A stretch of DNA of 64,000 nucleotides from an uncultured Gemmataceae bacterium (GCA_963750165.1 CAVVPN010000011.1:608001-672000), one strand, 5' to 3'. Shown: positions 408 through 53,185, counted from the first letter of the stretch. Numbers and translations are program-made. Notes: generated by a model from the sequence alone, not told the origin.

Positions 408-3059
408 ATGACCTGGACGTTCCAAACATTTCTCTCCAAATGGAAACCAACTGCCCGGTTCGTCGTCGCCTGTCTGCTCAAAGCCGCGGGCGGCGCAGCA
501 GCGGCAACCGATCCTGCCAACGTGCAGCTTTACCAGTGCCTGACCGCCAGCAGCGAACAGGCGGCGGAACACCTCTTCGACACACTGGCCGTGGAGCAAC
601 AGCGGGAAGTCGAAGACTGCTTCACGCGACTGCGACCATACCTCGACCAGCACGCCGCGTTGATCCGCCGGCTGGAAGCGCTCGCCGAGCAACAGGAAGG
701 CCAAATCCTCTCCGTCGAATCACTGAGCGAGTTGATCCGCAGCCGGCTGCCGGCAGACCTGAAGCCGGCGTTGCACTGCTGCCTGGATCAACTGGGCGGT
801 ATCCAGAAGCAACTGCGCGAGATCAAGGGCATCCTCAACAAGTTCAAGCCGGGTGTCTCCTACGAGAATGAGGAGGAACGCGCCATCCTGCGGCAACTGC
901 GCGAGAAGTTCCGCAGCCTGCCTCCCGAGCAACAAAAGGCCGCCAACTGGTCCGAGATGGCCGACCGTCTCTTTGATGCCGGCCTGTTCGACCTGGCGCG
1001 CGAAGAGCACGAGAACGCCGCCAGGGCTGCCGAACAGGAGCACAACCGGGCACTGGCGGCGGCGGAGCATTTCAAGGCGTACCGCGCCGCTTGCGAGAAG
1101 GAGCGATGGCCGGCAGCGCTGGCGTCGTTGCGGCAGGCGGTCGAGTTGAACCCGCAGCTGGCGCCGTTCGACTGGGAGCAATACGAGTTGTTAGACATCC
1201 TGGGAGCGGGTGGTTTCGGCACCGTGTTCCGCTGCCGGGACCGGCACCTGGACAAAGAGGTCGCCATCAAGGCCATTCACACGGGTGAGTTGGCCCGCGG
1301 GGTTCAGGAGGTGTTCAAGGAAGCGGCCATCCTCACGAAGTTGAAGCACCCGGCCATCATCGCCGTCCAGGGGGCCCACTTCGCCGATGCGTCCAAACAG
1401 CGGCCCTACATCGTCATGGACTATTTTCCGAGCCAGAGCTTGGCAACGCGCTTGAAGCAGCACGGGCCGTTGCCCGTGGCAGAGTTCATGCGCGTCGTCC
1501 GGCCGGTTGCGGAGGCGTTGCGGGCCGCCCACCAGGCCAAACCCCATCCCGTTTACCACCGCGATGTCAAGCCGGACAATTTGTTGCTGGGAGAGGCAGG
1601 GCAAATCAAGGTGATCGACTACGGCCTGGCCGTGCGCGTGGCCGCGGCCCACAATAGCGTCTCGCGACCGGCGGAGCGCCGCACGGTGCGGGACCAGTGC
1701 TACGCCGGCACCCTCGAATACGCGCCCCCTGAGCAGAAGGGGGAACTGAGCCAACCGGTGGGGCCCTACTCGGACATTTACGCCTTCGGCCGCACGTGCT
1801 GCAAGCTACTGTTTGGCGTCCCCACCCTCCACCGCCATCCCACCGACCCCAAACCCCACCACTACAACCGCACGGTGGATCCCCTTCCTCAAGCCCTGGT
1901 GGACCTGCTGGAACGCTGTGGGCAACATAAAGTGGAAGACCGGCCGCAGGATTTTCAGGACGTGCTGGACGTGCTGGACGCCATCGCTCACGAACTGGAC
2001 CTCCAGCAACAGCGGCAGCGCGAGCATGAGGAAGAAGCCCGGCGGCGCGAAACTGCCGCGGTTCGCCAGCGCGCGGAGGCAGAGGAGCGTCAGCGCCTGA
2101 TACTGTTGCAACAGGAAGGCGAAAAGAAACTGGCCGAACTGCACCGCACCACCCTGGACGAGACGCGGGGCAAGCATTATGCGAATGACGCGGGGTTGCG
2201 CGAGTATTACCACATCACGGCGGAGCGAGCCGAACACATTCGGAACAATGTGTGCGACCTGTGGTTGAAGGCCAATCCGCCCAGGAAGGAACGCCCGGCG
2301 GGCGAATTGTTCACCAACAGTCTCGGCATGAAGTTCGCCTGGATCCCACCGGGCACGTTCCTCATGGGCAGCCCGCCAAACGAACCCGGCCATCAGCCCA
2401 ACGAATGCCAGCACCCCGTCACCTTGACCCGCGGCTTTTACATGGGCATCTTTCCGGTGACCCAGGACCAGTGGCGCGCGGTAACGGGCAAAGCGACGTC
2501 GCACTTCCGGGGCGACGCCTTGCTGGGCGGCCTGCAAATGACCCGGGCGCTCCTGTCCGCGGTGGAGAGCGAATTGCCGGTTCACCTCCGGGGTAACCGA
2601 CTGCCGGTGGAGCAGCTGTCGTGGGAGGATTGCCAGTCCTTCTTGAGGGAACTGAGCCGCCGGGACGGCCGGACCTACTGGCTGCCCACCGAGGCCCAGT
2701 GGGAGTATGCCTGCCGCGCGGGCACGACCACCGCGTATGCGTTCGGGGCCAACCTGACCCCGCAACGGGCTAACTTCAATGGCGGCCAGACGACCGCCGT
2801 CGGCTCGTATGCTCCCAACGCATGGGGGTTGTACGACATGCACGGCAACGTCTGGGAGTGGTGCGCCGACTTCTTTGCTGAGGATTACTACCTGAAAAGC
2901 CCGCAGGTGGACCCGGTCAACCTGGAGGACACCGGGAAGCGGTCGATTCGTGGCGGCGCCTGGATGTCAACGGACTGTCGCAGCGCCGTCCGGCAGGGGT
3001 GGAAGCCAACCTTTATCTATAAGGATCTCGGCGTGCGCGTGTGTTTCTTTCCGGAATGA
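408..3059 (+). CDS. Ser/Thr protein kinase with N-terminal helical/TPR-like region and C-terminal FGE-sulfatase (SUMF1) domain
   Basis: GAGGFG, VAIK, HRDVKPDN, DYG, YAPPE kinase motifs; C-terminal LPTEAQWEYACRAG, NAWGLYDMHGNVWEW, RGGAW. Confidence 0.92.
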   Translation: MTWTFQTFLSKWKPTARFVVACLLKAAGGAAAATDPANVQLYQCLTASSEQAAEHLFDTLAVEQQREVEDCFTRLRPYLDQHAALIRRLEALAEQQEGQILSVESLSELIRSRLPADLKPALHCCLDQLGGIQKQLREIKGILNKFKPGVSYENEEERAILRQLREKFRSLPPEQQKAANWSEMADRLFDAGLFDLAREEHENAARAAEQEHNRALAAAEHFKAYRAACEKERWPAALASLRQAVELNPQLAPFDWEQYELLDILGAGGFGTVFRCRDRHLDKEVAIKAIHTGELARGVQEVFKEAAILTKLKHPAIIAVQGAHFADASKQRPYIVMDYFPSQSLATRLKQHGPLPVAEFMRVVRPVAEALRAAHQAKPHPVYHRDVKPDNLLLGEAGQIKVIDYGLAVRVAAAHNSVSRPAERRTVRDQCYAGTLEYAPPEQKGELSQPVGPYSDIYAFGRTCCKLLFGVPTLHRHPTDPKPHHYNRTVDPLPQALVDLLERCGQHKVEDRPQDFQDVLDVLDAIAHELDLQQQRQREHEEEARRRETAAVRQRAEAEERQRLILLQQEGEKKLAELHRTTLDETRGKHYANDAGLREYYHITAERAEHIRNNVCDLWLKANPPRKERPAGELFTNSLGMKFAWIPPGTFLMGSPPNEPGHQPNECQHPVTLTRGFYMGIFPVTQDQWRAVTGKATSHFRGDALLGGLQMTRALLSAVESELPVHLRGNRLPVEQLSWEDCQSFLRELSRRDGRTYWLPTEAQWEYACRAGTTTAYAFGANLTPQRANFNGGQTTAVGSYAPNAWGLYDMHGNVWEWCADFFAEDYYLKSPQVDPVNLEDTGKRSIRGGAWMSTDCRSAVRQGWKPTFIYKDLGVRVCFFPE

Positions 3060-3140
3060 GTGCCGAATCGAGAGGCGTAGCCGCCAACAAATCGCGCAGC
3101 CAGTGGGTCCGGGAGGAGATACCGGTCATTTTAGAGCGGT

Positions 3141-3224
3141 TCGCAGTTGGGTGTAGCGGAAGTCGCCAGACTTCCGTCCGGTGCTGCTCGGAAGTCTGGC
3201 GACTTCCGCTACACCCATTCGCAA
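3141..3224. repeat. GTAG-type REP-like inverted doublet
   Basis: TGGGTGTAGCGGAAGTCGCCAGACTTCCG...CGGAAGTCTGGCGACTTCCGCTACACCCA; near-identical copy at 56851-56932. Confidence 0.85.
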
Positions 3225-3419
3225 TCTGCAATAGTCTCGTTCGACGCCACCCGAAGATGGGCCTACTGGCTCTCCATCCAGCAGTATTTCAAAGGGAAGA
3301 CTGCTCGGAAGCCGAAGAAGAGCGCGAAGAGTGTTCGCATCCGCGTGCCAAAACGCCAGCCGGTGACCCGGCGGGCCATCGCAATCATGCGCGCGCTGAT
3401 GTTGGCGGCACTCCAGTAA
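3225..3419 (+). pseudogene. 5'-truncated gene remnant, resembling the C-terminus of DUF4365 proteins
   Basis: FDATRRWAYWLSIQQYF...SVRIRVPKRQPVTRRAIAIMR ends at TAA just before the RBS of the next gene; no start downstream of the REP; family call from recall. Confidence 0.45.
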
Positions 3420-3435: not shown

Positions 3436-3693
3436 ATGAAACGCGCGGACGTTACCTACGGCCAAATGGACCGAGTGCTCCGCGCGCTCGGTTTCTCCTG
3501 CACGCCCTCCAAGAAGGAGCCTCCCGGCCGCTTTTACGAGCATAAGGAATCCGGGGCGAAGATTGTGTTGCCCACATTTCCGGACAACGCGCGCGTCTAC
3601 GAGCACCATCTGCTCACCGTTCGCATCACCCTGGACAACTTCGGCATCGCGGACCCCACGACGTTCGACGCCAAACTGCAGAAGGCCGGTTAA
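3436..3693 (+). CDS. HicA-like (dsRBD-fold) small protein
   Basis: GAGGAG RBS; 85 aa; VTYGQMDRVLRALGF...FYEH...IVLP pattern; lacks the canonical GSH motif. Confidence 0.6.
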   Translation: MKRADVTYGQMDRVLRALGFSCTPSKKEPPGRFYEHKESGAKIVLPTFPDNARVYEHHLLTVRITLDNFGIADPTTFDAKLQKAG

Positions 3694-3777
3694 TGTCGTG
3701 CGGTTTGGCGGCGAACAAGCGGCGGAGCGCCCGCGCCAGGGTTGAGGTGACCACACTCGGAGAACCAGGAGGGATTC

Positions 3778-4194
3778 ATGACGCCCACACCCATCGCGAT
3801 TGGGCTCATACTCTGTGACCGCGTCATCGTGGACAAGGACACCTATTGTCCCTCGGCCATCGGCATCTTCACCGGCCTGGCCGTCGAACACTTCCCGTCC
3901 GACCCCCAGCGCTTTTCGGTCTTCGCGGTGCTGACCGACGCGAAGGGCGAAGGCCGGGGGAGGTTGGTGGTGTACCGCCTGGACGATCACTGGCAGCGTC
4001 AGGAGGAAATCTACAGCACCGAGAACACGATCCGTTTCCCGGATCGCTTCACCGTGGTAAACTTCAACCAGAGGGTGCGAAGCATTCGCTTCGCAATCGC
4101 CGGTTATTACGAAGCTGTCTTGTTCATTGACGGCGACGAGGTTGCTCACCGGCGCATAAAAGTCTACCAATCTGCTCCCGGCACCGTTCTTTGA
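3778..4194 (+). CDS. Hypothetical beta-rich protein (DUF6941-like)
   Basis: AGGAGG RBS; LILCDRVIVD...IGIF...GYYEAVLFIDG pattern. Confidence 0.65.
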   Translation: MTPTPIAIGLILCDRVIVDKDTYCPSAIGIFTGLAVEHFPSDPQRFSVFAVLTDAKGEGRGRLVVYRLDDHWQRQEEIYSTENTIRFPDRFTVVNFNQRVRSIRFAIAGYYEAVLFIDGDEVAHRRIKVYQSAPGTVL

Positions 4195-32566: not shown

Positions 32567-33142
32567 ATGGTCTCCCAGGTCCAGGTCGTCTCCATCCTGA
32601 TGATCATCCACGGCGCGCTGATCTCTTTGATGGGCTTGCTGTTCGCCGCGCTCGGGCCGTTCCTGTTCGCCATGGAGTCCTCTACCGCGCGGCGGCGGGA
32701 CGACACCGGCCTGGCCGTGATGATGATCATTTTCCTCATCGGCGGGCTGCTCCTGCTGACCGTCGGCGTCCTGCACATCATCGCGGGCGTCCGCTGCCTG
32801 AAGTTCCGCGGCCGCGTCCTGGCGATGGTGGCGCTGTTTGCCAACATCGTCGCCCTGCCGACCGGCTACTGCAGCCTGTTCGCCATCGGCATGGCCGTCT
32901 ACGGGCTGATCGTGCTGTTCGACAAAGACGTGGCCCTGGCCTTCGAGCGGGGCGAGGAAGGCATGGCCAGGGAGGACATCCTCGCCGAATTCGCCCCGCG
33001 CTACCACCGCCGCCGTCGCCCGCGCCGCGACGAGGACGACTACGACCGCGACGAGGACCGCCGTCCGTCGTACCCCCGGGACGACGCCGACCGTGAGGAC
33101 CGCGGCGAACCGGACGACCAGGACCGCCACCGCTTCCGCTGA
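32567..33142 (+). CDS. Membrane protein with Arg/Asp-rich C-terminal tail
   Basis: ~4 TM segments then RRRRPRRDEDDYDRDEDRR. Confidence 0.75.
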   Translation: MVSQVQVVSILMIIHGALISLMGLLFAALGPFLFAMESSTARRRDDTGLAVMMIIFLIGGLLLLTVGVLHIIAGVRCLKFRGRVLAMVALFANIVALPTGYCSLFAIGMAVYGLIVLFDKDVALAFERGEEGMAREDILAEFAPRYHRRRRPRRDEDDYDRDEDRRPSYPRDDADREDRGEPDDQDRHRFR

Positions 33143-45821: not shown

Positions 45822-46080
45822 GCTAACCTCCGGGCTCAGACAGGTTTGTCATTGAACTTCGGTTTGCAATCCATTATTTCATTTTGTCCATCGGTCGCTC
45901 CGTTGGCTTCCGCCCGCATGACTTCGCGTCACGGCGGCTCGTTCGGGCCCGGGTTCATTCGACATTATAACGCCACCCGCACCCGGAGGAACGGCCCAAC
46001 TTCGCGTGGACAGGACGCGCCCGCCGCCGCACAATAGCGTTGGCGAACCGCCGCACCCTGACCGGAGGAGGGAGACGACC

Positions 46081-47880
46081 ATGCTCAACACGTCCTTGAA
46101 GGAAGCCGTGCTGCGCCTGCTGCCGCGCGTGCAGACGCCGGCACAGTATCTCGGCGGCGAACTGAACGCCGTCGTCAAGGACCATCGCGGCGTCCGCGGC
46201 AAGCTGTGCCTGGCGTTCCCCGACGCCTACACGCTCGGCATGAGCCACCACGGCTTGCAGGTTCTGTACACCATCATGAACAGCGACCCGCAGTGGGCCT
46301 GCGAACGCGCCTTCACGCCCTGGGTCGATTTCGAGGCCCTGCTGCGCCAGCACAATCTGCCGCTCTACTCGCTGGAGACGTTCACGCCGCTGCGGCAGTT
46401 CGACGTGCTCGGCTTCAGCCTGCAGTACGAAATCTGCTACACGAACCTGCTGACCATGCTGGACCTGGGCGGCGTGCCGCTGCACAGCAAGGACCGCACG
46501 CTCGCCGACCCGCTGGTGATCTGCGGCGGTCCCGGGGCGCAGAACCCCGAGGTGCTCGCGCCCTTCGTGGACCTGTTCGTCATCGGCGACGGGGAGGAAA
46601 GTCTGCCGTGGTTGATGGAAAAGTACATGACGCTCAAGGAGCACGGCGGCAAGTCGCGGGAGGACGTGATCGCGGAGCTGGTCGGCGGCACGACCTGGGC
46701 GTATGCGCCGATGTTCTACGAGCCGGAGTACCACGCCGACGGCACCCTCGCGGCGATGCACCGCACGCGCGCCGACGTGCCGCAGCAGGTCATGGCCTGC
46801 ACGATCACGCAGGACTTCGACGCCATCCCGCTGCCGACGCGGCCGGTGGTGCCGTTCGTCGAGACGCCGCACGACCGCATCGCCCTGGAGATCATGCGCG
46901 GCTGTCCGTGGCAGTGCCGTTTCTGCCAATCGACGGTCATCAAGCGGCCGTTGCGCGTGCGCAGCGTCGAAACCATCGTACAGTCGGCCCTGGAGAGCTA
47001 CCGCAACACCGGCCACAACGAAATCAGCCTGCTCAGCCTGAGCACCAGCGATTACCCGTATTTCGAGGAACTGGTGACGCGCATGCACGAGGTGTTCACG
47101 CCGCTGGGCGTCAACATTTCGCTGCCGAGCCTGCGCGTCACGGATCAGTTACGGTTGCTGCCGAAGCTGTTTGCCGGCGTGCGCAAGGCGGGGCTGACGC
47201 TGGCGCCGGAGGTGGCCCGCGACGACATGCGCGACCAGATCCGCAAGCCGATCAAGAACGAGGACCTGTACGAGGGCTGCCGCGAGGCGTTCAAGAGCGG
47301 CTGGAACAAGGTCAAGCTGTACTTCCTGTGCGGCCTGCCGGGCGAGCGCACCGCCGACCTGGACGGCATCGTGGACATGGCGGAGACGATCTCGCGCATC
47401 GGCAAGGAGGTCAAGGGCCGCTTCGTCGATGTGACGGCGTCGGTGTCGAACTTCGTGCCGAAGCCGCACACGCCGTATCAGTGGAACGGCATGCAGTCGC
47501 GTGAGTATTTCCACTGGGCCGGCCAGTATCTGCGGCAGCGCTGCAAGATTCGGGCGGTGCGGATCAAGCAGCACGACGTGGAGGTGAGCCTGCTGGAGGG
47601 CGTGCTGACGCGCGGCGACCGGCGCGTGGCCCCGGTGCTGGAGGAGGCATGGCGGCGCGGCTGCCGGCTGGACGGCTGGCGCGAGTGCTTCCAGCCGGAG
47701 GTGTGGTGGCAGACGTTCGCGGACCTGGGCGTTGACGTGCAGTGGTACTCGCACCGGGCGCGGCCGATGACCGAAGTGCTGCCGTGGGATCATGTCAACG
47801 TCAAGAAGGGGCGGCAGTATCTGGAGAAGGAGCAGACGCGCAGTTTGCACCAGCTGGAGGTCATGGCGGCGGCGACGTGA
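46081..47880 (+). CDS. B12-binding radical SAM protein (TIGR03960-like)
   Basis: FPDAYTLGMSH, RGCPWQCRFCQ (CxxxCxxC), LPSLR, FVPKPHTP, LPWDH. Confidence 0.92.
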   Translation: MLNTSLKEAVLRLLPRVQTPAQYLGGELNAVVKDHRGVRGKLCLAFPDAYTLGMSHHGLQVLYTIMNSDPQWACERAFTPWVDFEALLRQHNLPLYSLETFTPLRQFDVLGFSLQYEICYTNLLTMLDLGGVPLHSKDRTLADPLVICGGPGAQNPEVLAPFVDLFVIGDGEESLPWLMEKYMTLKEHGGKSREDVIAELVGGTTWAYAPMFYEPEYHADGTLAAMHRTRADVPQQVMACTITQDFDAIPLPTRPVVPFVETPHDRIALEIMRGCPWQCRFCQSTVIKRPLRVRSVETIVQSALESYRNTGHNEISLLSLSTSDYPYFEELVTRMHEVFTPLGVNISLPSLRVTDQLRLLPKLFAGVRKAGLTLAPEVARDDMRDQIRKPIKNEDLYEGCREAFKSGWNKVKLYFLCGLPGERTADLDGIVDMAETISRIGKEVKGRFVDVTASVSNFVPKPHTPYQWNGMQSREYFHWAGQYLRQRCKIRAVRIKQHDVEVSLLEGVLTRGDRRVAPVLEEAWRRGCRLDGWRECFQPEVWWQTFADLGVDVQWYSHRARPMTEVLPWDHVNVKKGRQYLEKEQTRSLHQLEVMAAAT

Positions 47881-48274
47881 CGCACAGGTCGGCCGCCCAC
47901 TGCGCACGCCGTCGGCGGAGGGCTTGCGTGAACTCCTGCACGCGCTGCCGCAATCGGGGCGGCAGGTCGGCCGCTGCCAGGAGTTGGTCGCCCAGACAGA
48001 TCGCTTCGTGAAAATTGCCCGCCTGGGCCCAGCAGCTGATCGCGCTGAAGCGGTGTAGCTGACTTTTTTCGTGCAACCCTTGGGCGGCGCACACCTCGCT
48101 CAGCTGTTCCTCCAGCGCGGCGGCCCGGGCGAACCGCTCCGCCGCGGCGTCCTCCTGCCGCTGGTCCCGGAGCAACCGCCCTTCCAGGATCAGGTTCGAT
48201 TTCAGGGTTTCGTCGGCCGCAAAGTCCGCGTCCAGCCCGTGCCGTGCGAGTCCCTTCAAGGGGCGCTGCATCAT
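47861..48274 (-). CDS. Helical (TPR-like) hypothetical protein
   Basis: 137 aa; ATGA-coupled to upstream gene; SAISCWAQAG. Confidence 0.7.
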   Translation of the reverse strand: MMQRPLKGLARHGLDADFAADETLKSNLILEGRLLRDQRQEDAAAERFARAAALEEQLSEVCAAQGLHEKSQLHRFSAISCWAQAGNFHEAICLGDQLLAAADLPPRLRQRVQEFTQALRRRRAQWAADLCVTSPPP

Positions 48275-48794
48275 GGGGTTCTCTCGTCAAAGTGAGGGAA
48301 GGAGAAGATCACGCGCCGGGTCGCAAATCCGACCACGATCACGTAGCCGTCCGCTCCGTAGGGGTTGTCCAGCAACTGCTGCACTTTCTCCCGGTGTCGG
48401 GCCTCCAGGTTGTCCGCGGTCGTGCCACTGACTTCCAGGCCGAATTCCTGCGTCTCGTCCAGGCACCAGTAATCGAAGCGGTCGCCCTCCGCCGCCACCG
48501 CGTGCAGGCGGATGCCGGCGAAGTGCCACAGGACCACGCAGGCCACCCCAGCGCGGCCCATTCCGTGAGCGGGTTGTCCTGGATGCCCAGCGGCAACCGC
48601 GGGATACTCTCCCGGTCCCAATGTAAACGGAGCGAATGCTCGCCCGCCATTTCGCGAACGTCCCGCAGTTCAACCGTCAGGAGTGTCTCAGTGTCATCCG
48701 GGGTGGATTGCAAGCGCGTCACGGCGAACGGCACAAACAGGTGCGTGGCGAGTGCGTGGAGTTCGCCGATGGTTTCGAGACGAAAGGAATCCAC
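48271..48794 (-). CDS. Hypothetical protein with PD-(D/E)XK-like motifs (frameshift ~48547)
   Basis: TEWAALG|VAC...GDRFDY...LEVSG; ORFs join with one G added to a G4 run. Confidence 0.6.
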
Positions 48795-48902
48795 AATACC
48801 ATCCCTTCAACCCTCCAAGGTGTCCGCGCTTCAAAGTCCATTATAATGGCGGGGGAGTTCTCCAAAGGTAAAAAGTGCGGCGACGGCAGCGGCTGACGGT
48901 TA

Positions 48903-48959
48903 GAGTAGGAGCAGACGCGCAGCTTGCACCAGCTGGAGGTCATGGCGGAGGCGACGTAG
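48903..48959 (+). repeat. Copy 1 of the radical SAM gene 3' end (57 bp)
   Basis: AGGAGCAGACGCGCAGCTTGCACCAGCTGGAGGTCATGGCGGAGGCGACGTAG vs 47824-47880. Confidence 0.95.
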
Positions 48960-49044
48960 TTTGTCTCCCCTTCCCCGACCGGATCGCGGAACTGGGGCGC
49001 GGCACGCACTGGTTGCTCGGATTCCAACAACACCGGGAGGCCGT

Positions 49045-50574
49045 ATGAGGACGCAGACGCGGGCGCGATTCGGGGCGGCGGCGCTGGTGACGGTGCTGAT
49101 CGGGTTCGGCTCGGGACGGGTGTGCGGGCAGGAGCCCAGGCCGTTGCCGGCGGCGGTGACGGCCGCCTGGCAAAAGGCCGGCGCCGAGGTCGGCTGGACG
49201 AGGTCGGATAAATCCAGGGTACGACTGCTGTTTCGTCTCGGCAGGGCCGGGAAGGCTGGGGAGGTGCCGGCCTTCCGGTTCTCAGCGTGGCAGGGCGGCA
49301 TCCTCGCCAAACTGCCGCGGCCGGAGACCCCGTTTGGCTTGGACTTCGGCTCCACGAAGGTGGCGGACGCGGGGTTGAAGGAGCTGGCCGCGCTCCAGCA
49401 ACTGCAGGCGCTGAACCTTGGCTTCACGCAGGTGACGGACGCGGGGCTGAAGGAGTTGGCCGCGCTCAAGCGACTGCAGGCGCTGAACCTCGGCTTCACG
49501 CAGGTGGCGGACGCGGGGCTGAAGGAGCTGGCCGCGCTCAAGCAACTGCAGTTGCTGGGCCTCGGCGGCACGCAGGTGACGGATGCGGGTCTGAAGGAGT
49601 TGGCCGCTCTCAAGCAACTGCAAACACTGGACCTCAACGGCACGGAGGTGACGGACACGGGTCTGAAGGAGCTGGCCGCGCTCAAGCAACTCCAGTCGCT
49701 GGACCTCGGCTTAACGAAGGTGACGGACGCGGGGCTGAAGGAACTGGCCGCGCTCCAGCAGCTGCAGTCGCTGGCCCTCGGCTTAACGAAGGTGACGGAC
49801 ACGGGTCTGAAGGAACTGGCCGCGCTCAAGCAACTGCAGTCGCTGGCCCTCAACGGCACGGAGGTGACGGACACGGGTCTGAAGGAACTGGCCGCGCTCC
49901 AGCAACTGCAGGCGCTGAACCTCGGCTTCACGCAGGTGGCGGACGCGGGGCTGAAGGAGCTGGCCGCGCTCAAGCAACTGCAGTTGCTGGGCCTCGGCGG
50001 CACGCAGGTGACGGATGCGGGTCTGAAGGAACTGGCTTCGCTCAAGCAACTGCAAACACTGGTCCTCAGCAGCACGCAAGTGACGGACGCGGGGCTGAAG
50101 GAACTGGCTTCGCTCAAGCAACTGCGGTCGTTGTACCTCTACAACACCAAGGTAACGGACGCGGGTCTGAAGGAACTGGCCGCTCTCAAGCAACTGCGGT
50201 CGTTGTACCTCTACAACACCAAGGTAACGGACGCGGGGCTGAAGGAGCTGGCCGCCCTCAAGCAACTGCAGACACTGGACCTCAACGGCACGAAGGTGAC
50301 GGACGCGGGGCTGAAGGAGCTGGCCGCCCTCAAGCAACTGCGGTCGTTGTACCTCTACAACACCAAGGTAACGGACGCGGGGCTGAAGGAGCTGGCCGCG
50401 CTCAAGCAACTGCAAACACTGGTCCTCAGCAGCACGCAAGTGACGGACGCGGGGCTGAAGGAGCTGGCCGCGCTCCAGCAACTGCAATCGCTGAACCTTT
50501 TCAACACGAAGGTGACGGACGCGGGCGTAGCCCAGCTACGGAAGGCGCTGCCAAGCCTTGACATCCTCCGCTAA
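49045..50574 (+). CDS. Exported LRR protein, 16 near-identical 24-aa (72-bp) repeats + cap
   Basis: GGAGG RBS; TxVTDAGLKELAALKQLxxLxLxx repeats. Confidence 0.93.
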   Translation: MRTQTRARFGAAALVTVLIGFGSGRVCGQEPRPLPAAVTAAWQKAGAEVGWTRSDKSRVRLLFRLGRAGKAGEVPAFRFSAWQGGILAKLPRPETPFGLDFGSTKVADAGLKELAALQQLQALNLGFTQVTDAGLKELAALKRLQALNLGFTQVADAGLKELAALKQLQLLGLGGTQVTDAGLKELAALKQLQTLDLNGTEVTDTGLKELAALKQLQSLDLGLTKVTDAGLKELAALQQLQSLALGLTKVTDTGLKELAALKQLQSLALNGTEVTDTGLKELAALQQLQALNLGFTQVADAGLKELAALKQLQLLGLGGTQVTDAGLKELASLKQLQTLVLSSTQVTDAGLKELASLKQLRSLYLYNTKVTDAGLKELAALKQLRSLYLYNTKVTDAGLKELAALKQLQTLDLNGTKVTDAGLKELAALKQLRSLYLYNTKVTDAGLKELAALKQLQTLVLSSTQVTDAGLKELAALQQLQSLNLFNTKVTDAGVAQLRKALPSLDILR

Positions 50575-50638
50575 TTGGTTCGATAGCGACCGGCCAAGCG
50601 CTCCAGCGCTGTTGATGCCGCGACGGCCACGACACCTC

Positions 50639-50846
50639 CGGCTGGCGCGAGTGCTTCCAGCCGGAGGTGTGGTGGCAGACGTTCGCGGACCTGGACATTG
50701 GTGTGGAGTGGTACGCGCACCGGGCGCGGCCAATGACGGAGGTGCTGCCGTGGGACCACGTCAACGTCAAGAAGGGGCGGCAGTATCTGGAGAAGGAGCA
50801 GACGCGCAGCCTGCACCAGCTGGAGGTCATGGCGGAGGCGACGTGA
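50639..50846 (+). repeat. Copy 2 of the radical SAM gene 3' end (208 bp, no indels)
   Basis: Aligns to 47673-47880 with 14 mismatches by hand count. Confidence 0.97.
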
Positions 50847-50877
50847 CGCCGTGCATTCGAGAGACGGGGGAGCACAC

Positions 50878-51114
50878 ATGAATCGCTTGGTGGTGAAATC
50901 CAGAGTGAGCAGCGATGGCGTCTTGCACCTGGCGCTGCCGGTGGGTCTAGAGGCGGCGGACCAGGAGGTCCAGGTTACGGTGGAGACGGTCCCGGGTGCG
51001 CCGCTCTCCCGAGAGCAATGGCGGGCCTGGGTCCAGTCGATGGCCGGCGCCTGGCAGGGAGACTTTGAGCGACCGCCGCAGGGCGAGTACGAGGCGCGGG
51101 AGCCGCTATCGTGA
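50878..51114 (+). CDS. Putative VapB-type antitoxin
   Basis: 78 aa; GTGA-coupled to PIN gene; ERPPQGEYEAREPL C-terminus. Confidence 0.78.
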   Translation: MNRLVVKSRVSSDGVLHLALPVGLEAADQEVQVTVETVPGAPLSREQWRAWVQSMAGAWQGDFERPPQGEYEAREPLS

Positions 51115-51515
51115 AATACCTTCTGGACTCGAACGCCTGGATCGGCTGGCTCCGCCAGAGCCAGCCGAATCTCGTGCGCCGCATCCAGCAGGAACAGCCA
51201 GCGGACATCGCCCTTTGTTCGGTGGTATTGGGGGAGTTGCTTTACGGTGCCCGGCACAGCGGGGCGGCACACCAGGCCAACAATTTGGCCCTGGTTGCCG
51301 CATTGCGTCAGCAGTTCGTCTCAGTCCCCTTCGACGACCGGGCTGCCGAGGAGTACGGCAAGGTTCGGGAACACCTCGCCGGACTGGGAACGCTGATCGG
51401 GCCGAATGACCTTCTGATTGCGGCGATTGTCCTGGCCAACGGCTTGACCCTGGTGACCAACAACACCAGCGAATTCAGCCGGGTGCCAGGGCTGCCGCTG
51501 GAAGATTGGCAATAA
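51111..51515 (+). CDS. vapC: VapC PIN-domain toxin
   Basis: YLLDSN, GELLYGA, IGPNDLLIAA, LVTNNTSEFSRV. Confidence 0.93.
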   Translation: MKYLLDSNAWIGWLRQSQPNLVRRIQQEQPADIALCSVVLGELLYGARHSGAAHQANNLALVAALRQQFVSVPFDDRAAEEYGKVREHLAGLGTLIGPNDLLIAAIVLANGLTLVTNNTSEFSRVPGLPLEDWQ

Positions 51516-51618
51516 TTGCGCCGTCGCGGCTGTGGGCAGACCGATGACAACCTGGAGTGGATGCTGGATCGGGATTCCACACCCCCAGGTGCTACAGCGG
51601 CGCAAACGGTCGCTTGGG

Positions 51619-51700
51619 GTCAAGATGGGCCGACAATATCTTGCAGAAGGAGCCGACGCGCAGCTTGCACCAGCAGGAGGTCATGGCGGCGGCGACGTGA
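51619..51700 (+). repeat. Copy 3 of the radical SAM gene 3' end (82 bp, one insertion, most decayed)
   Basis: GTCAAGATGGGCCGACAATATCTTGCAGAAGGAGCCGACGCGCAGCTTGCACCAGCAGGAGGTCATGGCGGCGGCGACGTGA vs 47800-47880. Confidence 0.93.
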
Positions 51701-51716
51701 GGACCGGGAGGTGCCG

Positions 51717-52604
51717 ATGATTCTGGGCATCGATCCCAAGGTCGATTACGCCTTCAAGCATCTGCTGGGCCGCGAGTCCACGCGCGACCTGTTGATCGAC
51801 GTGATCGACCGGGTACTGAACGCCGCGCCGGGCCACCAGATTCAAGAACTGGAACTGCTCAACCCGTTCAACCCAAAGGAGACGCTGGACGACAAGCTGT
51901 CGATCCTGGACGTCAAGGCGCGCGACCAGTCCGGCCGGCAGTTCAACGTCGAAATGCAAATGCTCGCCCACCGGCACTACGAGAAGCGCATCCTGTACTA
52001 CGCCTGCAAATTGCACCAGCAACAACTGCACGAGGGCCAGGATTACCTGGAGCTGCGGCCGACCATTTCGATCAGCTTCCTGGACCACGTGCTGTTCCCG
52101 CAGGCGCCGGACTATCACCTGCACTTTCGGCTGCAGGACGAGGCGCACCACGTCGTTCTGTCGGAAGACATCGAATTTCACCTGCTGGAATTGCCGAAAT
52201 TTACAAAGTCGGCGGCGGAGCTGACAACGGACCTGGACCGCTGGCTGTATTTACTGCGCCACGCCGCCAACGTGGACACAGACGCGGTGCCCGCGCCGCT
52301 GCAGCGGCCGCTAATTTTGCGGGCTTTGGAGGAACTGAAAGTGTTGACGCAATCTGACCTGGAGCGCGAGCGCTACGAGGCGCGGCGCAAGTGGCAGCTG
52401 GACTACAACACGGGCCTGAAGGTGGCCCGCATGGAAGGCCTCGAAGAGGGCGAACAGATCGGCCGAATTCAGCTGTGCGAGCAGTTGCTGCAACGGCCGG
52501 TGACGCCGCGCGAGCAACTGGCAGCGCTGACACTGGCGGACTTGACGCGCCTGGCGGCTGATTTACAAACCCAGGTGTTGCAGCAGCGCAACCCCACGAG
52601 TTGA
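51717..52604 (+). CDS. Rpn-family PD-(D/E)XK nuclease (recombination-promoting nuclease/putative transposase)
   Basis: DPKVDYAFK, SILDVKA, NVEMQ, RILYY, LELPKF, WLYLL, EGLEEG. Confidence 0.92.
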   Translation: MILGIDPKVDYAFKHLLGRESTRDLLIDVIDRVLNAAPGHQIQELELLNPFNPKETLDDKLSILDVKARDQSGRQFNVEMQMLAHRHYEKRILYYACKLHQQQLHEGQDYLELRPTISISFLDHVLFPQAPDYHLHFRLQDEAHHVVLSEDIEFHLLELPKFTKSAAELTTDLDRWLYLLRHAANVDTDAVPAPLQRPLILRALEELKVLTQSDLERERYEARRKWQLDYNTGLKVARMEGLEEGEQIGRIQLCEQLLQRPVTPREQLAALTLADLTRLAADLQTQVLQQRNPTS

Positions 52605-52654
52605 CTGCTGCCGTTGGCCGGCGATGCGCGAGAGCCACAAATTCGCCCCCCTCC

Positions 52655-52918
52655 GAGGACCTGAAAGCAGTGTCACCAAACAATCGATTGCGCGAGGGCT
52701 AGGAAGCGCGGCGCAAAGTGTTACTGGATTTCAAAGCAGAAATGGATGCCGTTCGCGCGAACGGTCGCGAAGACGGCGAACAGATCGGCAGAATCCAGTT
52801 GTGCGAGCAGTTGCTGCAACGGCCGGTGACGCCGCGCGAGCGGTTGGCGTCCCTGTCCCTGGAGGACTTGACCCGGGTGGCGGACGATTTGCAAGCCCAG
52901 GTGCTGCGGCAGCGCTAA
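52655..52918 (+). pseudogene. Second, divergent Rpn C-terminal segment with one in-frame TAG
   Basis: EDLKAVSPNNRLREG*EARRKVLLDF...GEQIGRIQLCEQLLQRPVTPRE aligns gap-free with the Rpn C-terminus. Confidence 0.85.
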
Positions 52919-52974
52919 TGGCCTGCGGGTCAGAAGCACCCGTGCGACCGGCGAGCAGCCGGCCGCCGGCTAAG

Positions 52975-53058
52975 TGCCGGGGGCGGGACTCGAACCCGCA
53001 CGGTCTTGCGACCACAGGATCCTAAATCCTGGGTGTCTACCAGTTCCACCACCCCGGC
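52975..53058 (-). tRNA. tRNA-Leu (anticodon TAG)
   Basis: GCCGGGG acceptor stem, TGGTAGAC D-loop, CAGGA-TTTAGGA-TCCTG anticodon arm, long variable arm, GGTTCGAGTCC; CCA not encoded. Confidence 0.95.
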
Positions 53059-53185
53059 CTGCGCCGCCGCTCCGCCATTCTAGCAGCCGACCCGGCCCTC
53101 GCAACCGTCCCGGCCCGGCGGCAGTTCCATTTCGGCCGCGTTTCCCTATCCTCAACCCACAACCACACCCCGGAGACGCGCTCTG

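What the first reader, a model, noticed from the sequence alone, without database searches (positions are those of the whole stretch)
47673..52918. Gene-tail-anchored cassette array: four accessory cassettes separated by copies of the radical SAM gene's own 3' end, with no integrase
Seen: the last codons of the radical SAM gene recur at 48903-48959 (57 bp), 50639-50846 (208 bp) and 51619-51700 (82 bp), all in the same orientation and all ending at the stop codon, but with different 5' ends. Each tail (including the real one) is followed directly by a different cassette: nuclease-like + helical pair; LRR; VapBC; Rpn. The farthest copy is the most decayed. No integrase, attC palindrome or TIR is visible. 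Established: islands that integrate into gene 3' ends rebuild the gene and leave a displaced tail, usually with a defined crossover and an integrase; homology-facilitated illegitimate recombination (Acinetobacter, Streptococcus, Pseudomonas stutzeri) uses one homologous anchor and one non-homologous joint. Inference: a polarised, integron-like array that grows at the gene-proximal end, where each incoming [gene tail + cargo] replaces the resident tail and pushes it and its cargo outward. The direct repeats would also allow excision or reshuffling. The cargo is enriched in toxin/defence-type genes.
Basis: partly seen in the sequence, partly recalled or inferred. Interest (0 to 1): 0.9.

Follow-up and report, generated by a model that had tools for sequence, protein, structure and literature searches.

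The report
Displaced gene-tail scars flanking accessory cassettes
Behind a conserved radical SAM gene lie four small accessory cassettes, each preceded by an older copy of that gene's last codons, a scar that fits repeated one-sided recombination with foreign DNA rather than a dedicated integrase system.

Summary
The last 57, 211 and 82 nt of the TIGR03960 radical SAM gene recur at 48903-48959, 50639-50849 and 51619-51700. All are in the same orientation and end at the stop codon, and the 9.6-Mb genome holds no further copy. They separate an unknown gene pair, an LRR protein, VapBC and Rpn. No tyrosine or serine recombinase lies in the window, and the tails have no attC-like fold.

The locus is not unique. 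The same scar, [gene][small cargo][displaced own tail of 28-255 nt ending at the stop codon], occurs at eight or more other genes of this genome, including uvrB. It also occurs at the same radical SAM gene in two other genera and at uvrB in a third. Cargo is often a toxin-antitoxin pair.

Gene and displaced tails differ mainly at third codon positions, symmetrically in base direction, and keep equal GC3. Stop codons are sometimes swapped. This looks like diverged alleles rather than local decay.

Best reading (about 0.6): serial 3'-end displacement by one homologous anchor plus one illegitimate joint, as proposed for Rhs and T6SS arrays. It is a new variant of a known kind. Why the junction is pinned to the stop codon is unexplained.

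The parts
46081..47880 (+). Radical SAM gene (TIGR03960 family, B12-binding type), the recurrent homologous anchor. The longest ORF starts at 46006; the likely start is the Met at 46081.
   Evidence: ORF; PF19864 and PF04055; TIGR03960 at 652 bits (cut-off 462). Orthologues start MLNT....
47673..47883 (+). The resident 3' tail of the gene, used as reference for the repeats. Stop codon TGA at 47878-47880.
47881..48902 (-). Cassette 1. It holds a 137-aa helical/TPR-like ORF (47861-48274) whose last codons run into the antisense of the radical SAM tail. A ~97-116-aa ORF (48271-48621) overlaps it by 4 nt. A possible further fragment lies at 48564-48794. No family is assigned.
   Evidence: GC3 0.78-0.83 against 0.93 in core genes; no hits; unnamed clusters; Hjc/Mrr lead only 0.8; the paralogue at genome C11:1298176-1298706 shows that the cargo gene lost about 9 codons at the junction.
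48903..48959 (+). Displaced tail copy 1: 55-57 nt, 95% identical, with stop codon TAG instead of TGA.
48960..50638 (+). Cassette 2: a secreted-looking LRR protein (49045-50574) built of about 15 tandem 72-nt units.
   Evidence: (D1).
50618..50688 (+). Fold-back junction at the 5' edge of tail copy 2. The bases left of the edge are an inverted copy of tail bases just inside it, pivoting on a native 6-bp inverted repeat.
   Evidence: I8; p about 0.01, the only one of 14 junctions; hairpin -34.7 kcal/mol, z -7.6, 0 of 200 shuffles.
50639..50849 (+). Displaced tail copy 2: 211 nt, 93% identical, with an open frame and GC3 0.94.
50850..51515 (+). Cassette 3: VapB-like antitoxin (50878-51114) and PIN-domain VapC (51111-51515), overlapping by 4 nt.
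   Evidence: PIN 5.7e-18; NF047863, 2.5e-34.
51516..51610 (+). Decayed remnant of the tail of a third Rpn gene, directly behind the VapC stop.
   Evidence: D6; alignment.
51619..51700 (+). Displaced tail copy 3: 82 nt, 89-90% identical, one indel. It is the most decayed copy.
51717..52604 (+). Cassette 4: Rpn family PD-(D/E)XK nuclease.
   Evidence: PF12784, 3.6e-59; TIGR01784.
52655..52918 (+). Displaced tail of an earlier Rpn allele, 62-69% aa identity to the Rpn C-terminus. It retains an open 66-aa ORF (52718-52918) that covers the RpnS-like part.
   Evidence: D3, 77% nt; tblastn.
52974..53058 (-). tRNA-Leu(tag), the distal boundary of the variable interval.

Best explanation
The array is a stack of recombination scars, not a dedicated cassette machine.

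Proposed mechanism. Each time, DNA from a related lineage came in carrying a diverged allele of the radical SAM gene's 3' part followed by different downstream genes. It recombined homologously within the conserved gene (the anchor). Its far, non-homologous end was joined illegitimately inside the resident gene's last 57-211 nt. This could be classical homology-facilitated illegitimate recombination. It could also be illegitimate circularisation of the incoming piece followed by a single crossover. Either way the gene is rebuilt with the incoming tail. The new cargo sits right behind the stop codon. The resident tail remnant, together with whatever followed it, is pushed outward.

Proposed history. 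Rpn sat directly behind the gene at first. VapBC, then LRR, then the unknown pair were added at the proximal side. A separate event replaced the Rpn gene and left an orphan Rpn C-terminal remnant.

Why these cassettes persist. The direct repeats should delete non-addictive cargo quickly. Toxin-antitoxin cargo therefore survives preferentially. Highly conserved genes are the best anchors for diverged DNA.

Shown: the repeats, their locus specificity, the allele-like divergence, the absence of recombinases, recurrence at other genes and genera, the fold-back joint and the Rpn remnants.

Inferred: the donors, the order of events, dependence on RecA, the route of DNA entry and the addiction filter.
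For: 1. Only four copies of the tail exist in the genome, all in this locus.

2. The 5' ends differ (-57, -208, -81), while all copies end at the stop codon. At the same gene in G013 the displaced tail is 123-133 nt and in G230 about 107-112 nt. That makes five different 5' edges with no shared crossover point.

3. No tyrosine or serine recombinase lies in the window. No PF00589 hit lies on the radical SAM contigs of G013, G230 or G006.

4. The same scar occurs at 8 other host genes of G000 with unrelated tail sequences: histidine kinase, STK-TPR, UvrB (two cassettes), PSCyt2/PSD1, PGM/PMM, metallophosphoesterase, MBL-dehydrogenase and BNR. It also occurs at uvrB of G012 (253 nt).

5. Over 14 events and 1388 aligned nt, gene and copy differ at codon positions 40:31:89. 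The direction is symmetric, GC>AT 61 against AT>GC 48, p 0.25. GC3 in the copies equals that of the genes. There is 1 in-frame stop, and 4 of the 14 alignments contain a gap. Stop codons are swapped TGA/TAG in 3 copies.

6. The left joint of cassette 1 cuts about 9 codons off the cargo gene. The 5' edge of copy 2 is a fold-back hairpin typical of a processed DNA end.

7. Rpn tail remnants at 51516-51610 and 52655-52918 record further displacement events in the same interval.

8. Precedent, from passages read. In E. coli, one-sided-homology substrates gave duplications of 109-950 bp of the homologous end in 56 of 60 recombinants (PMC3240628). Sequential displacement by this recombination route is proposed for T6SS effector-immunity arrays and Rhs (PMC5361080).

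9. ComEC and DprA homologues are present. This is weak support because most control genomes have them too.
Against: No donor or intermediate state was seen. No same-genus genome is held, two metagenome scans gave 0 hits and no sequencing run was listed. The order of events and the donors are therefore inferred.

The homology ends within 4 nt of the stop codon in 12 of 15 events. The model does not predict this.

The codon-position bias alone is compatible with local duplication if mutation is GC-biased (my estimate, p about 0.05). Some copies do show GC>AT excess (12:4, 4:0 and 4:0). Copy 2 carries two changes at residues invariant in 18 orthologues.

Ku was not found (the genome is 93% complete), so the enzyme for the illegitimate joint is unknown.

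Recurrence at the same gene in 3 of 267 genomes could also point to target preference.
Confidence: 0.6

Rival explanations
1. Tandem accretion of small integrase-less elements by a site-specific recombinase acting in trans (CIME-, satellite- or tycheposon-like). Each cassette carries an att site that mimics the gene's tail. A helper integrase encoded elsewhere inserts it into the 3' end of the gene, restoring the gene and displacing the old tail.
For: The target's 3' end forms direct repeats that bound each unit, and the homology stops exactly at the stop codon, as in elements that rebuild their target gene. The same gene is hit in three genera. The genome holds 36 tyrosine recombinase hits that could act in trans.
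Against: The same gene shows five different 5' edges. Nine host genes have no common tail motif (by eye). No recombinase lies in the window or on the three related contigs. The left joint of cassette 1 truncates a cargo gene. There is a fold-back joint. The tails have no unusual structure. It would need a separate helper for each of 9 or more targets.
Confidence: 0.15
2. Local capture of a DNA fragment at a widely staggered break at the gene's end. Fill-in of the overhangs duplicates 28-255 nt (a long target-site duplication), and the outer copy then decays. No foreign allele is involved.
For: The duplication flanks the insert exactly. Both joints of cassette 1 look illegitimate. The youngest copies are 95% identical. 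Some copies show GC>AT excess, and copy 2 has radical changes at conserved residues. Positions 1 and 2 together carry 44% of the differences.
Against: Overall the substitution direction is symmetric and GC3 is unchanged in the copies. There is 1 in-frame stop, and 4 of the 14 alignments contain a gap, in 1388 nt at about 11% divergence. Stop codons are swapped to other stop codons, which needs two changes. G230 shows 11 synonymous against 1 non-synonymous codon change.
Confidence: 0.15
3. A recombinase-free but functional cassette system. Tail repeats serve as portable homology. [Cargo + tail] units loop out as circles by RecA and re-enter behind the same conserved gene in other cells, giving integron-like shuffling.
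For: Direct repeats of 57-211 nt are long enough for RecA. VapBC travels with a foreign Rpn-tail remnant, and the VapBC behind the STK-TPR gene travels with a foreign gene tail. Arrays with 2-3 cassettes exist at two genes.
Against: No two genomes share a cassette with the same tail edge. No circles or variant arrays could be looked for. Nothing shows selection for the array as such.
Confidence: 0.1

Closest known systems
Sequential displacement of T6SS effector-immunity modules in Vibrio cholerae (Kirchberger et al. 2017, PMC5361080; passages read) and C-terminal displacement in rhs loci (Jackson et al. 2009; seen only as a citation in that paper)
   Same: There is a conserved upstream anchor. 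New modules enter next to it. Old 3' remnants and their companions are shifted downstream into a polarised array. No integrase is involved. Homology-facilitated illegitimate recombination is proposed as the mechanism. The orphan Rpn C-terminal remnant here parallels the retained orphan immunity genes.
   Different: The anchor here is a housekeeping enzyme whose tail stays the same in function, not a toxin with a variable tip. The cargo is unrelated to the anchor (TA pairs, LRR, Rpn). The scar is genome-wide and family-wide rather than tied to one toxin system.
Homology-facilitated illegitimate recombination and single crossover of recircularised one-sided-homology DNA (E. coli conjugation study, PMC3240628, passages read; Acinetobacter, S. 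pneumoniae and P. stutzeri work recalled and seen only as citations)
   Same: There is one homologous end and one illegitimate joint. The study observed partial duplications of the homologous end, 109-950 bp in 56 of 60 recombinants, with a fixed edge where homology ends and a variable other edge.
   Different: Those are laboratory events with engineered substrates. Classical events of this kind usually delete recipient DNA. Here natural scars are stacked, and their fixed edge sits at the stop codon.
Integrons and integrase-less attC clusters (CALINs; recalled, no paper read)
   Same: Compact, often promoterless cassettes form a polarised array, and TA cassettes are common.
   Different: No IntI was found and no attC-like folded sites. 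The separators are copies of a host gene's coding tail, and they differ from host gene to host gene.
Tandem accretion of integrative elements at a gene's 3' end (ICESt/CIME at fda; tycheposon arrays at tRNA genes; recalled, no paper read)
   Same: Repeated partial copies of the target's 3' end separate the units, and some units lack an integrase.
   Different: No helper integrase was found. The crossover positions vary, the units are much smaller (0.5-3.4 kb), and many unrelated targets are used.

Membership tests
Integron / CALIN | IntI-type tyrosine recombinase next to the array (integron); an array of attC sites (both) | tested here: not met
   No PF00589 hit in the window; 36 hits lie elsewhere in the genome, the nearest about 42 kb from the array.
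Integron / CALIN | Cassettes separated by attC sites that fold as imperfect hairpins | tested here: not met
   The four tail copies fold no better than shuffles as single-stranded DNA, z -0.37 to +1.0. No attC covariance model was available to run.
Site-specific integrative element accretion (CIME/ICE, tycheposon-like) | Integrase in the element or in a tandem helper | tested here: not met
   window; contigs G013:C5, G230:C66, G006:C13. A helper acting in trans from elsewhere in the genome cannot be excluded.
Site-specific integrative element accretion (CIME/ICE, tycheposon-like) | One fixed crossover core, so that repeats share the same edge | tested here: not met
   5' edges lie at -57, -208 and -81, about -123/-133 in G013 and about -107/-112 in G230.
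Site-specific integrative element accretion (CIME/ICE, tycheposon-like) | Direct repeats of the target gene's 3' end bound each unit and the gene is restored | tested here: met
Sequential 3'-end displacement by one-sided homologous recombination (HFIR type) | Conserved anchor gene followed by same-orientation remnants of its own 3' end, each followed by different DNA | tested here: met
   Also seen at 8 other genes and in 3 other genomes.
Sequential 3'-end displacement by one-sided homologous recombination (HFIR type) | Remnants are diverged functional alleles, not decayed local copies | tested here: inconclusive
   In favour: third-position bias 40:31:89, symmetric direction, equal GC3 and stop-codon swaps. 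Against: some copies show decay.
Sequential 3'-end displacement by one-sided homologous recombination (HFIR type) | Illegitimate joint with microhomology between donor end and recipient | not testable with these tools
   No donor sequence is available. One joint shows a fold-back and one truncates a cargo gene.
Type II toxin-antitoxin VapBC (cassette 3) | PIN-domain toxin preceded by a small overlapping antitoxin gene | tested here: met
   PIN 5.7e-18; NF047863 2.5e-34, below its curated cut-off (118 against 140 bits); 4-nt overlap at 51111-51114. The antitoxin has no family hit.
Rpn family (cassette 4) | PD-(D/E)XK Rpn domain | tested here: met
   PF12784 at 200.7 bits; TIGR01784 at 150 bits against cut-off 52.
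Rpn family (cassette 4) | Separately translated C-terminal RpnS antitoxin | not tested
   Only the abstract of bioRxiv 10.1101/2023.05.02.539157 was seen. An internal Met lies at a matching place in both the gene and the orphan remnant (read).

The most novel reading that the evidence does not exclude
In this planctomycete family, the coding tails of conserved genes may act as recombinase-free attachment sites. [Cargo + tail] units would loop out by RecA between tail repeats and re-enter behind the same gene in other cells. They would always be pinned to the stop codon, so that promoterless cargo is read from the host gene, and toxin-antitoxin addiction would protect the insert from deletion. 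That would be an integron-like gene-capture system that needs no integrase and that any conserved gene can host. The unexplained pinning of 12 of 15 junctions to within 4 nt of the stop codon would then reflect a real mechanistic or selective rule.
Probability: 0.15. Interest if true: 0.8.

Novelty: new variant of a known kind. Interest (0 to 1): 0.55.

Why it matters
If the reading holds, one-sided homologous recombination is a visible and recurrent route by which these large planctomycete genomes gain small accessory genes, without any mobile-element enzyme. That would extend 'sequential displacement', so far described for polymorphic toxin loci, to ordinary housekeeping genes.

It gives a simple sequence signature, a displaced own tail behind a gene, that can be searched for in any genome to date and count such events.

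It offers a concrete reason why toxin-antitoxin pairs accumulate behind core genes: addiction protects a repeat-flanked insert.

The stop-codon pinning of the junctions is a sharp, testable anomaly.

Tried and rejected
**Sequencing runs.** None was listed for 47400-53100. Misassembly and excised circles could not be checked with reads.

**Metagenome contigs.** Two pattern scans, exact core and degenerate peptide-based, each gave 0 hits.

**Comparative locus.** All 60 nearest genomes belong to other genera. In none of the 18 relatives' loci fetched and compared did the flanking thiolase or MFS genes lie next to the radical SAM gene, so cassette order could not be compared.

**Defence models.** PADLOC gave 0 hits for 10 proteins.

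**Cassette 1.** Pfam and NCBIfam gave nothing. The Atlas gave only unnamed clusters and an Hjc/Mrr lead at 0.8, so 'nuclease-like' stays a lead.

**False positives of my genome scan.**
- Tandem WD40 paralogues at C3:309402.
- Antisense frames of a repetitive gene at C3:637-647 kb.
- Many tandem-repeat proteins.
- Only 5'-truncated hits were followed up; full-length (160-nt) tail hits were not inspected.

**Other checks.**
- Fold-back signatures were absent at the other 13 junctions.
- Rpn is unlikely to be the agent: there are only 2 Rpn genes in the genome, and they are not near the other scars.
- Ku was not found.
- Sigma-70-like promoters inside the tails: none on the + strand.

**Genomes with two tail hits.** Among other genomes with two radical SAM tail hits, 4 were abutting split hits, 1 had two contigs, and 2 had a contig-end or weak hit. 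These were rejected.

**Literature.** Searches for TA insertion with 3'-end duplication and for planctomycete TA/HGT found nothing on this pattern. These three searches are the only basis for saying it was not found in print.

Full report
**Observation**

The ORF 46006-47880 (likely start 46081) is a TIGR03960-family B12-binding radical SAM protein (652 bits against a cut-off of 462). Its last 211 nt recur three times downstream on the same strand:
- 48903-48959: 55-57 nt, 95% identical.
- 50639-50849: 211 nt, 93% identical.
- 51619-51700: 82 nt, 89-90% identical, one indel.

A search of the whole 9,620,814-base assembly finds only these four places. The E-values are 4e-106, 4e-87, 1e-22 and 1e-17, and the next hit has E 0.011 over 30 nt. 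The tail is therefore not a dispersed repeat.

All copies end at the stop codon (-2, +3 and 0 nt from its last base) but start at -57, -208 and -81. The copies differ from one another and sit in unique flanks, so a duplicated assembly is unlikely. Reads could not be consulted, because no run was listed.

**Contents of the interval**

- Behind the real tail lies a pair of unnamed ORFs on the minus strand, 47861-48274 and 48271-48621, overlapping by 4 nt. They have no Pfam, NCBIfam or PADLOC hit. The Atlas places them in unnamed clusters of hypothetical proteins.
- Behind copy 1 lies an LRR protein.
- Behind copy 2 lie VapB and a PIN-domain VapC.
- Behind copy 3 lies an Rpn-family nuclease.
- tRNA-Leu(tag) on the minus strand closes the interval at 52974-53058.

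Cassette genes have GC3 of 0.77-0.85, against 0.93 in the flanking core genes. Of 36 PF00589 and 5 PF00239 hits in the genome, none lies in the window. As single strands the tails fold no better than shuffles (z -0.37 to +1.0), so they are not attC-like.

**Further scars inside the interval**

- The Rpn gene (51717-52604) is followed at about 52655-52918 by the tail of another Rpn allele. It is 77% identical in nt and 62-69% in aa, and it retains an open 66-aa ORF.
- A third, decayed Rpn tail lies at 51516-51610, directly behind the VapC stop and just before radical SAM copy 3. This places an Rpn gene directly behind the radical SAM gene in the ancestor. It also shows that VapBC entered between the two, on the gene-proximal side.
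- The 137-aa cargo gene of cassette 1 has a paralogue at genome C11:1298176-1298706 (84%). Homology stops 5 nt from the radical SAM stop codon, and the window's copy has lost about 9 codons there. That joint is therefore illegitimate and not a clean cassette end.
- At the 5' edge of copy 2, the bases to the left are an inverted copy of tail bases just inside the edge, pivoting on a 6-bp inverted repeat native to the gene. The hairpin has -34.7 kcal/mol and z -7.6, with 0 of 200 shuffles as good. This is what a folded-back and extended DNA end would leave. None of the other 13 junctions tested shows it.

**The locus is not unique**

I scanned the last 160 nt of 5,483 coding-like ORFs of G000 against the 12 kb downstream. 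I then inspected by hand the hits that were truncated at the 5' end. The same architecture appeared at eight other host genes:

| Host gene | Cargo | Displaced tail |
|---|---|---|
| Histidine kinase | ParE-type pair | 74 nt, 95% |
| STK-TPR protein | VapB, broken VapC and a foreign gene tail | 174 nt, 78% |
| uvrB | ECF sigma gene | 37 nt |
| uvrB | VapBC | 136 nt |
| PSCyt2/PSD1 gene | Phd-type pair | 99 nt |
| PGM/PMM gene | MazF | 39 nt |
| Metallophosphoesterase | three LRR genes | 103 nt |
| MBL-dehydrogenase | 581 nt | 115 nt |
| BNR gene | Kelch protein | 105 nt |

Two candidates were false: WD40 paralogues and antisense frames of a repetitive gene. Hits covering the full 160 nt were not followed up.

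A later look around the genome's 20 PIN hits found one more probable scar, at C3:1075217-1076403. Three of the 20 PIN hits lie in the scars listed above.

**Other genomes**

Among 267 genomes of the order, 229 had the radical SAM tail and 10, including G000, gave more than one hit. On inspection:
- Two are true displaced tails. In G013 the tail is 123-133 nt, 86% identical, with a 1.6-kb cargo of two unnamed ORFs. In G230 it is about 107-112 nt, 89% identical, with a 1.65-kb cargo.
- Four are abutting split hits.
- One has two contigs.
- Two have a contig-end or weak hit.

G006 has VapB and a frameshifted VapC about 200 nt behind its radical SAM gene, and no second tail on what is left of the contig. 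No PF00589 hit lies on any of these three contigs.

As a control with another conserved gene, I searched the uvrB tail in 143 genomes of at least 90% completeness. Most second hits are other UVR-motif proteins and were not inspected one by one. G012 has a verified displaced uvrB tail of 253 nt (about 93%), 684 nt behind the gene. The phenomenon is therefore a property of the family and not of this one gene.

**What the tails are**

Over 14 events (12 in G000, plus G013 and G230) and 1388 aligned nt, the differences between the gene and its displaced tail fall at codon positions 40:31:89. Their direction is symmetric, GC>AT 61 against AT>GC 48, p 0.25. At third positions the counts are 29 against 28. 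GC3 in the copies equals that in the genes. There is 1 in-frame stop, and 4 of the 14 alignments contain a gap. In three copies the stop codon is a different stop codon, TGA against TAG.

A copy decaying in place under the usual GC-to-AT pressure should lose GC3 and pick up stops and indels. Most copies instead look like ends of functional, diverged alleles.

The evidence is not clean:
- The position bias alone could be reached by GC-weighted mutation plus synonymous change in the gene (my estimate).
- Three copies show GC>AT excess.
- Copy 2 has two changes at residues invariant in 18 orthologues, inside a cluster of 5 substitutions in about 15 nt.

**Mechanism**

The best-supported reading is repeated one-sided homologous recombination. 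Incoming DNA with a diverged allele of the gene's 3' part and different downstream genes pairs within the conserved gene. Its other end is joined illegitimately inside the resident gene's last few dozen to two hundred bases, or the piece first circularises illegitimately and then integrates by one crossover. Either route rebuilds the gene, puts the new cargo directly behind the stop codon and leaves the resident tail remnant with its old neighbours further out.

Passages read in PMC3240628 report such partial duplications of the homologous end, 109-950 bp, in 56 of 60 E. coli recombinants. Passages read in PMC5361080 propose 'sequential displacement' by homology-facilitated illegitimate recombination for T6SS effector-immunity arrays and, by citation, for rhs loci. 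That paper notes the likeness to integrons without an integrase.

Two inferences follow:
- The direct repeats should delete ordinary cargo, whereas loss of a TA pair is penalised. That would explain why TA pairs dominate the surviving scars.
- Highly conserved genes such as this radical SAM gene and uvrB are the best anchors for diverged DNA, which would explain the stacks at exactly these genes.

ComEC and DprA homologues are present, but so are they in most control genomes. Ku was not found.

**What remains unexplained**

In 12 of 15 events the homology between gene and displaced tail ends within 4 nt of the stop codon. The others end at +11, +16 and -24. In the youngest pairs, at 93-95% identity, orthologous intergenic DNA should still be recognisable, so the cargo really abuts the stop codon. 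Neither the displacement model nor a staggered-break model predicts this. Selection for read-through expression, a ratchet of repeated trimming at hot spots, or a real mechanistic rule are all open.

**Rivals**

- A trans-acting site-specific recombinase with tail-mimicking att sites would explain the stop-codon edge and the recurrence at one gene. It fits badly with five different 5' edges at that gene, nine or more unrelated targets, the absence of any recombinase nearby, the truncated cargo gene and the fold-back joint.
- Local capture at a staggered break would explain the exact flanking duplication. It fits badly with the allele-like divergence.
- A functional, RecA-driven cassette system remains possible and is the most novel reading. 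Nothing here tests it.

**Verdict**

However, the locus is one instance of a general scar type and not a special integron-like device, and the principle is already in print for toxin loci. I rate it a new variant of a known kind, of moderate interest, with a sharp open question at the stop codon.

Noticed in passing
window 52655-52918 (ORF 52718-52918) and 51516-51610: An orphan Rpn C-terminal remnant with an intact 66-aa ORF lies behind the Rpn gene, and a second, decayed Rpn tail lies behind VapC. According to an abstract seen, Rpn C-terminal domains (RpnS) are separately translated antitoxins. The orphan may therefore be a retained antitoxin, like the orphan immunity genes of T6SS arrays.
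   Followed up: partly
window 50618-50688: A strong fold-back hairpin (-34.7 kcal/mol, z -7.6) sits exactly at the 5' edge of tail copy 2. The left arm is an inverted copy of gene sequence. It looks like a hairpin-primed DNA end.
   Followed up: yes
window about 50690-50710: Copy 2 carries a cluster of 5 substitutions within about 15 nt. It turns the conserved motif LG(I/V)D into LDIG, a swap of G and D, roughly 50 nt inside the fold-back joint. This may be error-prone repair synthesis or a compensated allele.
   Followed up: partly
genome G000: L061 (C3:1722273-1724868), L062 (C4:571486-576263), L067 (C9:82000-86436), L068 (C10:32216-35752), L072 (C11:695889-699519), L070 (C12:660639-665644), L071 (C12:1013861-1016692), L069 (C10:271267-273865): Eight other host genes carry the same scar, [gene][small cargo][displaced own tail]. 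uvrB has two cassettes. Cargo includes VapBC, ParE-type, Phd-type and MazF modules, HicA/HicB-like genes nearby, an ECF sigma factor, LRR proteins and a Kelch protein.
   Followed up: yes
L062 (C4: about 571690-571880): Behind the broken VapC lies the tail of a different gene family, about 80% identical to gene ends at C1:493137, C1:497086, C1:501756, C12:159869 and C11:1068984. The STK-TPR gene's own displaced tail follows it. The cargo seems to carry a remnant of an earlier host.
   Followed up: partly
L068 (C10: about 32640-32800): A ~100-130-nt repeat interrupts the PIN gene of that cassette. It has 71-83% identical copies at C10:217352, C11:823877, C11:1495960, C11:1638479, C11:2342388 and C3:1536540, and may be a small non-autonomous mobile element.
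   Followed up: no
L044 (G006) 2574-3245: In another genus, a VapB-like ORF and a frameshifted PIN VapC (47% identical to the window's VapC C-terminus) lie about 200 nt behind the radical SAM gene.
   Followed up: partly
L075 (G012:C10), oriented 2973 and 3657-3909: A displaced uvrB tail of 253 nt (about 93%) lies 684 nt behind uvrB in a further genus. Homology ends 3 nt before the end of the stop codon, and the copy has lost the stop.
   Followed up: yes
genome C3:1075217-1076403: A PIN fragment is followed by a 66-nt copy of the upstream 216-aa gene's tail (22 aa, 86%). This is probably a further scar.
   Followed up: no
window 49268-50575: The LRR gene is built of about 15 tandem 72-nt (24-aa) units that are 73-89% identical. 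A similar LRR cargo sits in the C12 scar.
   Followed up: no
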